Of a DNA stretch of 39,757 nucleotides, positions 8,494 to 9,435 are shown piece after piece (positions within the stretch are counted from its first letter, which is position 1; each line of letters opens with the position of its first letter). The notes beneath the pieces are model-generated. The model made no database searches, was not told the DNA's origin, and saw nothing but the letters and a program-made list of their open reading frames with translations. The stretch is from a virus (lineage: Duplodnaviria > Heunggongvirae > Uroviricota > Caudoviricetes). The stretch lies in IMG/VR virus record IMGVR_UViG_2541047752_000002, one strand, 5' to 3'. The translations under genes were made by a program, and so were the position numbers.

Positions 8494-9435
8494 ATGAGCA
8501 CTAAATTAACCGGCTATGTATGGGATGGTTGCGCTGCGTCAGGCATGAAGTTATCCAGCGTGGCAATTATGGCCCGCCTGGCTGATTTCAGTAATGACGA
8601 AGGTGTGTGCTGGCCATCAATTGAAACCATTGCCCGCCAGATTGGCGCGGGGATGAGCACCGTCAGAACGGCTATCGCACGGCTGGAAGCGGAAGGCTGG
8701 TTAACGCGTAAGGCGCGTCGCCAGGGTAACCGCAATGCGTCGAATGTTTATCAGCTTAACGTTGCGAAGCTTCAGGCAGCGGCATTTTCTCAACTGTCAG
8801 ATTCTGACCCGTCAAAATCTGACGCATCAAAATCTGACCAGTCAAAATTTGATGCGTCGAAATCTGGCAAAAAAGCGGGTTTTCACCCGTCAGAATCTGG
8901 CGGGGATCCGTCAGTAAAATCAAAACATGATCCGTCAGATAAAAAAACTTCTCGTCCGGACGCTTCGCAACCGGACACGCAGACGGCTGAACAAGAGTTT
9001 TTAACTCGCCATCCTGATGCGGTTGTATTCAGCCCTAAAAAGCGCCAGTGGGGAACGCAGGATGATTTGGCCTGCGCACAGTGGCTCTGGAAAAAAATCA
9101 TCGCTCTGTACGAGCAGGCCGCCGAATGTGACGGCGAAGTGGTACGTCCTAAAGAACCGAACTGGACAGCCTGGGCAAACGAAATTCGCCTGATGTGTGT
9201 ACAGGATGGGCGTACTCATAAACAAATCTGCGAGATGTACAGCCGCGTCAGCCGCGATCCGTTCTGGTGCCGTAACGTGCTCAGCCCGTCGAAGCTGCGG
9301 GAAAAATGGGATGAGCTTTCCCTGCGCTTATCGCCGTCCGTAAGCACGTACACCGAAAAACGCGAAGACCCGTACTTCAAATCCAGTTACGACAACGTGG
9401 ACTACAGCCAGATCCCGGCAGGATTCAGGGGGTGA
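8494..9435 (+). CDS. Replication initiation protein (O-like; N-terminal winged HTH)
   Basis: 313-aa ORF; N-terminal HTH-like segment (…[29 protein letters not shown]…); iteron array inside the gene as in lambda O. Confidence 0.7.
   Translation: [313 protein letters not shown]
8797..8950. repeat. Putative replication origin: iteron array inside the initiator gene, followed by an A-rich tract
   Basis: About 7 tandem ~15-bp repeats (CCGTCAAAATCTGAC, GCATCAAAATCTGAC, CAGTCAAAATTTGATG, CGTCGAAATCTGGC, CCGTCAGAATCTGGC, CCGTCAGTAAAATC, CCGTCAGATAAAAAAA). Confidence 0.6.

What the first reader, a model, noticed from the sequence alone, without database searches (positions are those of the whole stretch)
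8494..9435. Replication origin iterons embedded in the initiator gene; no helicase-loader gene recognised
About seven ~15-bp iterons (consensus near CCGTCAAAATCTGAC) followed by an A-rich tract lie at 8797-8950 inside the initiator ORF, mirroring lambda ori inside O. They translate as an acidic Ser/Asp/Lys-rich linker between the N-terminal HTH and the C-terminal domain. No P/DnaC-like loader is apparent downstream, so the initiator may recruit host primosome factors directly.
Basis: partly seen in the sequence, partly recalled or inferred. Interest (0 to 1): 0.35.

Follow-up and report, generated by a model that had tools for sequence, protein, structure and literature searches.

The report
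Prophage origin inside loader-less initiator gene
A prophage replication-initiator gene carries its own origin repeats, as phage lambda's does, but the phage has no helicase-loader gene; instead the initiator ends in the same short tail as the host restart protein DnaT, which may be how it borrows the host's DnaB-DnaC helicase-loading machinery.

Summary
Gene 8494-9435 (+) encodes a 313-aa initiator in an SfIV/SfV-like E. coli/Shigella prophage. It has an N-terminal HTH_36 winged helix, a Ser/Asp/Lys linker and a C-terminal domain homologous to that of lambda O.

The linker DNA holds five tandem 13-bp palindromic iterons (GTCAAAATCTGAC, 15-bp period, 8796-8868). A sixth lies at 8889-8901, followed by two GATC-containing repeats and the gene's least stable, 72% AT stretch (8913-8952).

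Third-codon positions are far more conserved here than in the N-domain (24/51 versus 6/95 invariant). The repeat type changes with the N-domain and not with the C-domain. This is DNA-level, cognate-site behaviour.

No P, DnaC or DnaB gene is present in the window or in 80 near-identical loci.

New lead: the last residues (SQIPAGFRG) match the C-terminus of E. coli DnaT. In phages this tail sits on several unrelated initiator bodies. It is followed either by an E. coli-type dnaC or by no loader, and never by P.

The inference is that the tail couples the initiator to the DnaC pathway, here the host's. The origin reading is solid (about 0.85); the tail mechanism is a hypothesis (about 0.4). It is a new variant of a known kind.

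The parts
8494..9435 (+). Replication initiator gene (313 aa). It is 98-99% identical to SfIV gp41 and SfII 'O protein family'. K-12 YfdO is its last 122 aa.
   Evidence: (phrog_391 'replication initiation O-like', 3e-134)
8494..8778 (+). N-terminal origin-binding domain (aa 1-95) with the winged helix-turn-helix HTH_36 at aa 23-70
   Evidence: PF13730 4.2e-11; weak DnaD_N 1.3e-3. Relatives that share this domain share the iterons
8796..8868 (+). Five tandem iterons with a 15-bp period: 8796-8808, 8811-8823, 8826-8838, 8841-8853, 8856-8868. Each is an imperfect palindrome, GTCA-N5-TGAC
   Evidence: conserved across five phages
8869..8888 (+). Spacer with A6 and T4 runs (AAAAAAGCGGGTTTTCACCC) between iterons 5 and 6
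8889..8901 (+). Sixth iteron (GTCAGAATCTGGC), 33 bp after the fifth. This spacing is kept in phiNP, YeP1, Klebsiella phage 1 and phiP27
8905..8943 (+). Two 15-bp repeats 24 bp apart (GATCCGTCAGTAAAA / GATCCGTCAGATAAA). Each starts with a GATC (Dam) site that is invariant in five phages
   Evidence: (D5)
8913..8952 (+). Least stable, 72% AT stretch of the gene, lying to the right of the iterons: candidate unwinding region
8779..9018 (+). Linker coding region (aa 96-175), rich in Ser/Asp/Lys/Pro and charge-neutral. It contains the origin
9019..9324 (+). C-terminal all-alpha domain (aa 176-277), homologous to the C-terminal (P-binding) domain of lambda O. It has no Pfam family and no solved structural relative
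9334..9432 (+). Low-confidence (probably flexible) C-terminal tail (aa 281-313). The last 9 aa, SQIPAGFRG (9406-9432), match the C-terminus of E. coli DnaT 8/9
9438..9920 (+). Downstream gene, YfdN-like (weak wHTH plus PerC domain), in the slot where lambda has P. Its Shine-Dalgarno sequence overlaps the last tail codons. It is not a loader and is absent from three other loader-less relatives

Best explanation
This is the replication module of an SfIV/SfV-type lambdoid prophage, made of an initiator gene with the origin inside it and no phage-encoded helicase loader.

Shown or strongly inferred:
- The N-terminal winged-helix domain (aa 1-95) recognises the palindromic 13-bp iterons that lie in the DNA encoding the protein's own inter-domain linker. 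There are five at a 15-bp period and a sixth 33 bp further on.
- To the right of the iterons lie two GATC-bearing repeats and a moderately AT-rich stretch, where melting would start.

Inferred:
- Lambda O hands DnaB to the origin through P. This initiator instead keeps a lambda-O-type C-domain but ends in the flexible tail found at the C-terminus of the host restart protein DnaT.
- That tail links the origin-bound initiator to the DnaC-type loading pathway. In this phage, which has no dnaC of its own, that means the host DnaB6-DnaC6 complex, bound directly or through a partner of the DnaT tail.
- DnaB would then be loaded on the melted AT-rich region, and the host primase and polymerase take over.
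For: Origin:
- Six sites with at most 2 mismatches fall in 106 bp, against one elsewhere in 39.7 kb.
- Third-codon identity to four relatives is 0.65-0.84 in the repeat region against 0.42-0.53 in the N-domain. Invariant third positions are 24/51 against 6/95, p 1.6e-8.
- The same N-domain family keeps the core TCA(A/G)A(A/T)TCTGA and the 15/15/.../33 spacing even at 44% protein identity and with different C-domains (phiNP, YeP1, Klebsiella phage 1, phiP27).
- The same C-domain (at least 98% identical) fused to other N-domains has other repeats at the same place: GGGTCAAAATG x6 and AAGGGAAAACC x4. Both have a 23-bp period, so they are not peptide repeats.
- Iteron number varies in whole 15-bp units.
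- The C-domain is homologous to lambda O aa 178-270.
- SfIV, whose initiator is 99% identical, is an isolated phage that lysogenises.

No loader:
- Searches found none in the window.
- 0 of 80 near-identical loci have P, DnaC or DnaB within 4.5 kb.

Tail:
- [13 protein letters not shown] matches DnaT [13 protein letters not shown].
- Relatives end in RCVNHISEPDTEIPPGFRG or RDVNAISEPDNTIPEGFRG, compared with DnaT [20 protein letters not shown].
- hhalign probability is 94.7%, E 6e-8.
- Tail residues are invariant in DnaT orthologues.
- 115 distinct tail DNAs use all Pro and Gly codons and both Arg codon families, so selection acts on the peptide.
- 120 tail-bearing ORFs in viral contigs have at least three body types. 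50 are directly followed by an E. coli-type dnaC, 54 by no loader, and none by P or dnaB. The loader-less ones go straight to a ren-like gene.
- In the reverse direction, about 71 of 77 E. coli-type dnaC genes in 80 genome loci are preceded by an ORF ending in (I/V)PxGF(R/T)G(E). These include at least 16 prophage initiators of about four body types, as well as chromosomal dnaT.
- Initiators paired with P (lambda, Edno5) or with DnaC-like plus DnaB (phiP27) lack the tail.
Against: - There is no experiment on this origin or protein.
- The AT-rich stretch is weak compared with ori-lambda.
- The tail and dnaC are adjacent on the DNA, so their association could partly reflect co-inheritance as one mosaic unit. 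The last codons also carry the downstream gene's Shine-Dalgarno sequence.
- The window's tail (..[15 protein letters not shown]) is a diverged variant that was never seen next to dnaC in my sample.
- No direct DnaT-DnaC contact has been shown (PMC11087952). The 2026 preprimosome study proposes the DnaT N-domain, not the tail, as the DnaB/DnaC recruiter (PMC13377028).
- The first, simpler idea (tail means no loader) was refuted by the census.
- phiP27 uses a DnaC-like loader without a tail.
Confidence: 0.6

Rival explanations
1. The tail recruits the PriA-PriB(-DnaT) restart primosome rather than DnaB-DnaC itself. The initiator melts the origin, PriA is brought or stabilised there through the DnaT-like tail, and DnaB is then loaded by the normal restart route.
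For: The tail comes from a primosome protein. The DnaT C-terminal region docks on PriA through a hydrophobic interface (PMC13377028). RAST and PGAP name these proteins 'primosomal protein I'.
Against: The published PriA contact is assigned to the folded DnaT C-domain, which this protein lacks. The tight pairing of the tail with dnaC genes in phages points to DnaC rather than PriA. Nothing in the papers I read assigns the tail a partner.
Confidence: 0.15
2. The tail is irrelevant to helicase loading. It would be a hitch-hiking end-piece of a mosaic module, or serve mainly as the translational-coupling region for the next gene. Helicase recruitment would then go through the lambda-O-like C-domain contacting host DnaB, DnaC or DnaA directly, as with iteron plasmid Rep proteins.
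For: The last codons (AGGGGGTGATTATG) form the Shine-Dalgarno sequence of the next gene. Mosaic joints lie just upstream of the tail: SfV and mEp460 share only the last 76 nt. Plasmid Rep proteins work without loaders (established knowledge).
Against: The peptide is kept through abundant synonymous change over about 19 residues. It is retained on at least four body types, and also where the downstream gene is not dnaC. No DnaA box with at most 1 mismatch lies within 650 bp of the iterons.
Confidence: 0.15
3. A phage-encoded loader exists but is unrecognised, for example the N-terminal half of the YfdN-like protein (9438-9920) or the ORFs at 8146-8504.
For: YfdN-like sits exactly in the P slot, is translationally coupled, and has an uncharacterised N-terminal half with weak wHTH hits. 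The ORFs at 8146-8504 have no known function.
Against: phiNP, Klebsiella phage 1 LV-2017 and cdtI have tail-bearing initiators followed directly by methylase genes, with no YfdN-like gene. The strict-tail loader-less loci go straight to a ren-like gene. The YfdN C-half is a PerC/ANR-type regulator domain.
Confidence: 0.07
4. The repeats are only a low-complexity coding repeat (an SKSD-type linker) and the true origin is elsewhere.
For: The 15-bp unit is a multiple of 3 and translates to a repeated xSKSD peptide.
Against: Third-codon conservation is high. The units are palindromic. The repeats covary with the N-domain. Sister initiators have 23-bp periods that cannot encode peptide repeats. The non-repeat flanking DNA is also conserved.
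Confidence: 0.03

Closest known systems
Phage lambda O protein with ori-lambda inside gene O, working with the loader P
   Same: An N-terminal site-specific DNA-binding domain. Palindromic iterons in the linker-coding DNA, followed by an AT-rich stretch. A homologous C-terminal domain (aa 176-277 against O 178-270, E 9e-25). The same gene position after cII.
   Different: The N-domain and iterons differ (13-bp units at a 15-bp period; lambda has four ~20-bp repeats, as quoted in PMC8022706). There is no P gene. The C-terminal tail is DnaT-like instead of lambda's ..TDWIYGVDL. The AT-rich region is weaker.
E. coli DnaT (primosomal protein I) and the dnaT-dnaC operon
   Same: The extreme C-terminal tail motif. 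In sister phages the tail-bearing gene is directly followed by an E. coli-type dnaC, in the same overlapping arrangement as dnaT-dnaC.
   Different: There is no DnaT N-domain and no detectable DnaT three-helix C-domain. This protein is a sequence-specific origin binder with its own origin. The database name 'primosomal protein I' is therefore misleading.
SfV orf39, SfIV gp41, SfII 'O protein' and K-12 CPS-53 YfdO
   Same: It is the same gene (SfIV and SfII, 98-99%) or shares the last 33 aa and the downstream gene (SfV, mEp460, Stx2 Sawaravirus). YfdO is the C-terminal 122 aa.
   Different: These are annotated only by similarity. The SfIV paper describes a 'replication module' without an origin or a mechanism. 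SfV orf39 has a different N-domain, different repeats and a different C-domain.
DopC/DopE of Cellvibrionales and Oceanospirillales (Brezellec et al. 2017, PMC5509034)
   Same: An HTH_36 N-domain combined with a DnaT C-terminal motif in one protein of lambda-O ancestry.
   Different: DopC is chromosomal, has no iterons, is judged not to be an initiator, and is paired with a P-like DopE. The protein here is a phage initiator with iterons and no P.
'Initiator-solo' phage replication modules (Weigel and Seitz 2006 classification; recalled from memory, not in the held library) and iteron plasmids such as pSC101, F and R6K
   Same: An origin-binding initiator with iterons and no dedicated helicase or loader gene, relying on host DnaB-DnaC.
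   Different: Plasmid origins usually add DnaA boxes, and none lies near this origin. The DnaT-like tail is not a feature I know from plasmid Rep proteins.

Membership tests
Lambdoid initiator with internal origin (lambda O / ori-lambda type) | N-terminal sequence-specific DNA-binding (winged-helix) domain | tested here: met
   PF13730 HTH_36 at aa 23-70, 4.2e-11; PHROG 391 'replication initiation O-like', 3e-134. PF04492 (Phage_rep_O) itself did not hit.
Lambdoid initiator with internal origin (lambda O / ori-lambda type) | Four or more direct repeats (iterons) inside the initiator's own coding sequence, in the inter-domain linker | tested here: met
   Six sites at 8796-8901.
Lambdoid initiator with internal origin (lambda O / ori-lambda type) | Iteron sequence is specific to the N-terminal domain (exchange of one goes with exchange of the other) | tested here: met
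Lambdoid initiator with internal origin (lambda O / ori-lambda type) | AT-rich unwinding region next to the iterons | tested here: inconclusive
   8913-8952 is 72% AT and is the least stable 40-mer of the gene, but only at the 96th percentile of the window.
Lambdoid initiator with internal origin (lambda O / ori-lambda type) | C-terminal domain homologous to that of lambda O | tested here: met
   BLASTP E 9e-25, aa 70-277 against O 78-270; tblastn 2e-17.
Lambdoid initiator with internal origin (lambda O / ori-lambda type) | P-type (PF06992) loader gene immediately downstream | tested here: not met
   The downstream gene is PerC/YfdN-like. phmmer with lambda P and Edno5 P found nothing in the window at E<=10. 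Positive controls were detected.
Lambdoid initiator with internal origin (lambda O / ori-lambda type) | Origin activity and initiator binding shown by experiment | not testable with these tools
   No paper found on this origin.
DnaT (primosomal protein I) | N-terminal oligomerisation and PriB-binding domain (aa 1-83) | tested here: not met
   BLASTP aligns only the last 9 residues significantly.
DnaT (primosomal protein I) | C-terminal three-helix-bundle ssDNA-binding domain (PF17948; PDB 4OU6/2RU8) | tested here: not met
   No Pfam hit at E<=1. The profile search against PDB and hhalign align only the tail. Foldseek of the AF2 model finds nothing at E<=0.001 (the model is of moderate quality, pLDDT 70).
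DnaT (primosomal protein I) | Conserved flexible C-terminal tail ..[17 protein letters not shown] | tested here: met
   8/9 identity at the C-terminus; family-level hhalign probability 94.7%, E 6e-8. The window's copy is a diverged variant ([12 protein letters not shown]).
Loader-less ('initiator-solo') phage replication module | Initiator and origin without any helicase or helicase-loader gene in the phage | tested here: met
   0 of 80 near-identical loci.
Iteron plasmid-type origin assisted by DnaA | DnaA boxes adjacent to the iterons | tested here: not met
   The nearest TTATCCACA match with at most 1 mismatch is at 8129-8137, 659 bp from the first iteron.
DnaD-like / replisome-organiser initiators | DnaD_N and DnaB_2 (DDBH2) domains above the family threshold | tested here: inconclusive
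   DnaD_N 19.4 bits against a cutoff of 27. PHROG 2514 'DnaD-like helicase loader' 6e-29 and PHROG 4880 'replisome organizer' 7.5e-12. No DnaB_2 hit.

The most novel reading that the evidence does not exclude
The about 20-residue C-terminal tail shared by DnaT and many phage initiators is a portable peptide that recruits DnaC, or the DnaB-DnaC complex. Phages graft it onto unrelated origin-binding proteins to use a DnaC-type loader, either their own or the host's. The enterobacterial dnaT-dnaC operon would then be a domesticated phage initiator-loader module. If so, the missing link in replication restart (how the PriA-PriB-DnaT preprimosome hands over to DnaB-DnaC) would be this tail, and loader-less prophages such as this one would replicate by mimicking DnaT.
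Probability: 0.35. Interest if true: 0.8.

Novelty: new variant of a known kind. Interest (0 to 1): 0.5.

Why it matters
An origin inside the initiator gene is textbook lambda biology, so on that point this is a new, uncharacterised specificity class of a known design. It is very common: the gene is in 1576 of 5426 complete E. coli genomes, in Shigella serotype-converting phages and in some Stx2 phages.

The more interesting point is how a lambda-O-like initiator works without P. The comparative data show that the DnaT tail is a mobile module tightly linked to DnaC-type loaders. This yields a simple, testable hypothesis for an open question in E. coli replication restart: what on the preprimosome contacts DnaB-DnaC. 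[quoted passage not shown] The data also suggest a phage origin for dnaT alongside dnaC.

In practice, the cognate N-domain and iteron sets (15-bp and 23-bp types) would give orthogonal small replicons. They would also provide a marker for replication-competent as opposed to decayed prophages; K-12 YfdO is a remnant that lacks the origin.

Tried and rejected
1. 'The DnaT-like tail marks initiators that lack a loader.' Rejected: 53 of 120 tail-bearing ORFs in viral contigs have a dnaC gene in the locus, 50 of them immediately downstream. The idea was refined to 'the tail goes with DnaC-type loading and never with P'.

2. 'The C-domain is a DnaT-like three-helix bundle.' Not supported by Pfam, PDB sequence and profile searches, hhalign or Foldseek.

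3. 'DnaA boxes help, as in plasmids.' None lies near the iterons.

4. 'YfdN-like is the missing loader.' It is absent from three loader-less relatives.

5. 'The tail is only an RNA-level Shine-Dalgarno or coupling element.' Weakened by the synonymous codon diversity.

6. The small hairpin at 8876-8889 in the spacer is not conserved in Klebsiella phage 1 and was dropped.

7. Literature. The SfV genome paper (PMC134923) is not held. The term 'initiator-solo' does not occur in the library. The SfIV paper says nothing about an origin.

8. The search for related loci with a mixed C-domain alignment returned only loci at least 98% identical. It was useful as a survey of one type but not for a lambda-versus-tail contrast.

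9. The search for homologous proteins on the C-domain returned mostly fragments, which limited the depth of the structure model.

10. Some loci fetched in parallel calls reached the Python sandbox only later. Analyses were repeated once they had arrived.
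Full report
WHAT THE WINDOW IS

The window is a prophage of the SfIV/SfII/SfV group of E. coli/Shigella lambdoid phages, 96-98% identical over the early region. Host genes lie at both ends: a pectinesterase-family ORF at 1-1284 and a PBP/YbhB-like ORF at 39281-39757.

The early-right operon reads as follows:
- cI-like repressor, 6583-7257 (-)
- a short Cro-like ORF ending at 7548 (placed by analogy with SfIV/SfV cro; not scanned here)
- CII-like (CP76), 7580-8149
- two overlapping small ORFs, 8146-8504
- the finding's ORF, 8494-9435
- YfdN/PerC-like, 9438-9920
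- a LexA N-domain-only protein
- RusA
- KilA-N
- DUF968
- Q, 12461-12829

The same gene is present in 1576 of 5426 complete E. coli genomes. Its annotation varies: 'DNA replication protein O', 'primosomal protein (I)' or 'helix-turn-helix domain-containing protein'.

CHECK OF THE OBSERVATION

The repeats are real and lie at the stated place.
- TRF reports a 15-bp period with 4.3 copies at 8803-8866.
- The repeat finder places units in register at 8796, 8811, 8826, 8841 and 8856, and after a 33-bp step at 8889.
- Each unit is an imperfect palindrome, GTCA-N5-TGAC.
- With at most 2 mismatches to GTCAAAATCTGAC there are six + strand sites in 8796-8901 and a single other site in the whole 39.7-kb window.
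- To the right lie two 15-bp repeats 24 bp apart, each starting with GATC (8905-8919 and 8929-8943).
- The least stable 40-mer of the gene is 8913-8952: 72% AT, 96th percentile of the window.

So 'about seven iterons followed by an A-rich tract' is a fair description. There are six full sites and two partial ones. The linker they encode is rich in Ser, Asp and Lys, but it is charge-neutral (10 D + 1 E against 10 K + 1 R), not acidic.

IS IT A CIS-ACTING ELEMENT OR JUST A CODING REPEAT?

Three independent comparisons say it is DNA.

(a) Codon positions. I aligned the gene with four relatives: phiNP, Klebsiella phage 1 LV-2017, YeP1 and phiP27. The N-domain is 85%, about 72% (whole-protein value), 68% and 44% identical respectively. 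Third-codon identity to the window is 0.42-0.53 in the N-domain but 0.65-0.84 in the repeat region. Third positions invariant in all five sequences are 6/95 against 24/51 (Fisher p 1.6e-8).

(b) Covariation with the N-domain.
- All phages with this N-domain family keep the core TCA(A/G)A(A/T)TCTGA, the 15-bp phasing, the 33-bp step to the last site and the GATC repeats. This holds whatever C-terminal domain they carry.
- Conversely, in 80 viral contigs whose C-domain and tail are at least 98% identical to the window, three N-domain classes occur, each with its own repeat at the same position in the gene (gene nt ~300-450): TCAAAATCTGA at 15 bp (68 loci), GGGTCAAAATG x6 at 23 bp (10 loci, the mEp460_4F5 type) and AAGGGAAAACC x4 at 23 bp (1 locus).
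- A 23-bp period cannot be a peptide repeat.

(c) Copy number. The number of units changes in whole 15-bp steps: five or six tandem units.

This is the behaviour known for the lambdoid O genes and their origins. The phage L paper gives the lambda, P22 and L examples (PMC8022706).

THE PROTEIN

- N-terminal part: HTH_36 at aa 23-70 (4.2e-11), with weaker GntR, MarR and DnaD_N hits.
- C-terminal part: aa 176-277 are homologous to lambda O aa 178-270, the domain that in lambda contacts P (BLASTP E 9e-25; tblastn 2e-17 against many lambda-like records).
- This C-domain has no Pfam family.
- An AlphaFold2 model of aa 165-313 is all-alpha with moderate confidence (pLDDT 70 overall, core 75-88). The last ~30 residues have low confidence.
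- The model has no Foldseek match in the PDB at E<=0.001.

THE MISSING LOADER

Pfam/PHROG scans of the early-left, early-right, lysis and terminase ORFs found no P, DnaC/IstB, DnaB or primase-helicase family. The ORFs between 19.7 and 38.8 kb were not scanned with Pfam or PHROGs. By position and by similarity to SfV/SfIV-type phages they are the late and serotype-conversion regions, and directly covers only the stretch up to 25 kb.

phmmer with lambda P, Edno5 P, E. coli DnaC, and phiP27 DnaC-like and DnaB-like against every stop-to-stop segment of the window gave nothing at E<=10. The same panel found the known genes in phiP27, Edno5, lambda and K-12.

None of the 80 near-identical loci has such a gene within 4.5 kb. 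Annotated relatives are the same:
- SfIV, SfV, mEp460, mEp460_4F5 and Stx2a_1447 have the YfdN-like gene in the P slot.
- phiNP, Klebsiella phage 1 and cdtI go straight to a methylase.

The YfdN-like protein is therefore not an obligatory partner. SfIV, whose initiator is 99% identical, is an isolated phage that lysogenises, so the module is functional. No DnaA box with at most 1 mismatch lies within 650 bp of the iterons.

THE DnaT-LIKE TAIL

The last nine residues, [13 protein letters not shown], match the last nine of E. coli DnaT, [13 protein letters not shown].

Relatives of the C-domain make the link plainer. They end in ..RCVNHISEPDTEIPPGFRG or ..SRDVNAISEPDNTIPEGFRG, compared with DnaT ..[20 protein letters not shown].
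- A profile of these proteins hits DnaT entries in the PDB only through the tail (E 0.14-0.43).
- hhalign against a DnaT alignment gives 94.7% probability, E 6e-8, over 20 columns.
- In DnaT orthologues the tail residues are invariant.
- The literature describes this segment as a highly flexible 20-residue tail, and I found no function assigned to it (PMC5778457; PMC4132743).

The folded DnaT C-domain is not detectable in the window protein. The protein is therefore not a DnaT, and the database name 'primosomal protein I' is misleading.

WHAT THE TAIL GOES WITH

My first idea, that the tail marks initiators without a loader, fitted eight annotated phages across three C-domain types (alignment A1). 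It failed a wider test.

These ORFs have lambda-O-type, SfV-type and other C-domains and many different N-domains.
- 50 are followed immediately by a gene about 50% identical to E. coli DnaC.
- 54 with at least 1 kb of downstream sequence have no loader.
- None has P or DnaB.
- The same initiator class, with an identical tail, occurs with and without dnaC: 14 against 9 loci for the largest class.
- In the loader-less loci the next gene is ren-like (phrog_142). The order is lambda's O-P-ren with the P slot simply empty.

In the reverse direction I took 80 genome loci with an E. coli-type dnaC.
- 77 have an ORF ending at the dnaC start.
- About 71 of those end in (I/V)PxGF(R/T)G(E).
- These include chromosomal dnaT and at least 16 prophage initiators of 258-360 aa with about four different C-domains.

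Seven viral ORFs carry a full homologue of DnaT aa 84-179, with E values from about 1e-38 to 1e-21, on other initiator-type N-domains.

Initiators paired with P (lambda, Edno5) or with a distant DnaC-like plus DnaB pair (phiP27) lack the tail.

The peptide, and not merely the RNA, is under selection. In 115 distinct tail DNAs all four Pro codons, all four Gly codons and both Arg codon families are used.

MECHANISM I COMMIT TO

Steps shown or strongly inferred:
- The N-domain binds the six palindromic iterons within its own gene.
- The AT-rich, GATC-bearing stretch to their right is the likely melting site.

Steps inferred:
- The DnaT-type tail couples the origin complex to DnaC-type helicase loading.
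- Because this phage has no dnaC, it uses the host DnaB6-DnaC6.

I put about 0.85 on the origin and initiator reading and about 0.4 on the tail step. The main caveats are:
- The tail and dnaC are neighbours on the DNA and may travel together as one mosaic unit.
- The last tail codons also form the next gene's Shine-Dalgarno sequence.
- The window's tail is a diverged variant that I never saw next to dnaC.
- A direct DnaT-DnaC contact has not been shown (PMC11087952).
- The 2026 preprimosome structures led their authors to propose the DnaT N-domain as the recruiter (PMC13377028).

Rivals are PriA-dependent assembly through the tail, an irrelevant tail with recruitment through the lambda-O-like domain, an unrecognised loader among the neighbours, and a purely coding repeat. 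The last two have little support.

COMPARISON WITH WHAT IS KNOWN, AND NOVELTY

The design of an initiator with an internal origin is lambda's.
- The protein meets the lambda-type membership tests for the N-domain, the internal iterons, N-domain/iteron specificity and C-domain homology.
- It fails the test for a P partner.
- It meets only the tail criterion for DnaT.

Loader-less modules have been classified before (Weigel and Seitz 2006; from memory, not checkable here). An HTH_36 plus DnaT-C combination has been noted in the domesticated bacterial DopC, which has no iterons and sits next to a P-like gene (PMC5509034).

I found no paper on this origin, on its iteron class, or on the DnaT tail as a module of phage initiators. 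I therefore rate it a new variant of a known kind.

The origin itself is of ordinary interest. The tail lead is what lifts the score, because it turns an open question in replication restart into a simple binding and deletion experiment.

Noticed in passing
window 12860-14237 (-): A caspase-like Peptidase_C14 gene (329 aa) and an adjacent, overlapping ThsB-like TIR gene (133 aa) sit between Q and the holin. This is a two-gene candidate anti-phage defence moron. PADLOC hits only the generic 'caspase' and ThsB models.
   Followed up: partly
window 8146-8504 (+): Two ORFs overlap in different frames and both have family support: 8146-8484 (112 aa, phrog_1170; its first 63 aa match phrog_20047) and 8325-8504 (59 aa, DUF4222, 8.6e-19). 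Different annotators call different ones. This may be a real overlap, a frameshift or a propagated mis-annotation.
   Followed up: no
window 3458-4021 (-) and 4122-4946 (-): The prophage carries YfdR (99% identical to K-12 YfdR) and YfdQ (DUF2303). YfdR is reported to bind DnaA, and the yfdQRST cluster to inhibit chromosomal initiation when overexpressed (PMC4776307, title and abstract only). This could be relevant to a phage that must compete for host DnaB-DnaC.
   Followed up: partly
L294 2879-3247 (E. coli K-12 yfdO) versus window 9067-9432: K-12 CPS-53 YfdO (122 aa) is the C-terminal 122 residues of this initiator (98% identical), including the DnaT-like tail. It lacks the N-domain and the origin.
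   Followed up: yes
L135, L147, L155, L177, L189 (also L115, L212); L094-L213 generally: Some viral-contig initiators carry a full homologue of DnaT aa 84-179 (E values from about 1e-38 to 1e-21) on a different N-domain. Many tail-bearing initiators are directly followed by a gene about 50% identical to E. coli DnaC. The dnaT-dnaC operon therefore looks like a copy of a phage initiator-loader module; the direction of transfer was not determined.
   Followed up: partly
window 8905-8908 and 8929-8932; L002, L003, L004, L005, L007, L010-L012: Two GATC sites in the origin are invariant in five phages. Most relatives (SfV, mEp460, mEp460_4F5, phiNP, Klebsiella phage 1, YeP1, cdtI, Stx2a_1447) encode a Dam-type methylase one or two genes after the initiator. 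This window and SfIV do not.
   Followed up: partly
L014 gene nt 304-379; L004 3803-3880: Iteron copy number is polymorphic: six tandem 15-bp units (protein 319 aa) in some otherwise near-identical loci and in Klebsiella phage 1, against five in the window.
   Followed up: yes
window 1-1284 (-) and 39281-39757 (-): Both ends of the window are host-type genes: a pectinesterase-family ORF and a PBP/YbhB-like ORF. A lambda-type integrase (1419-2489) and excisionase lie next to the left end. From memory this is the ybhC-ybhB interval that holds the lambda attachment site; not verified.
   Followed up: no
window 9887-10246 (+): A 119-aa protein consists of a LexA DNA-binding domain only (PF01726, 3.7e-19) with no S24 peptidase domain. 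It is conserved next to RusA in this phage group.
   Followed up: no
L263, L276, L282, L254 (Xenorhabdus, Photorhabdus, Proteus): In these genomes the ORF upstream of the DnaC-type gene ends in ..EQFISE(D/N)F or ..EFIPENF instead of ..IPxGFRG. This may be a second tail type for the same role.
   Followed up: no
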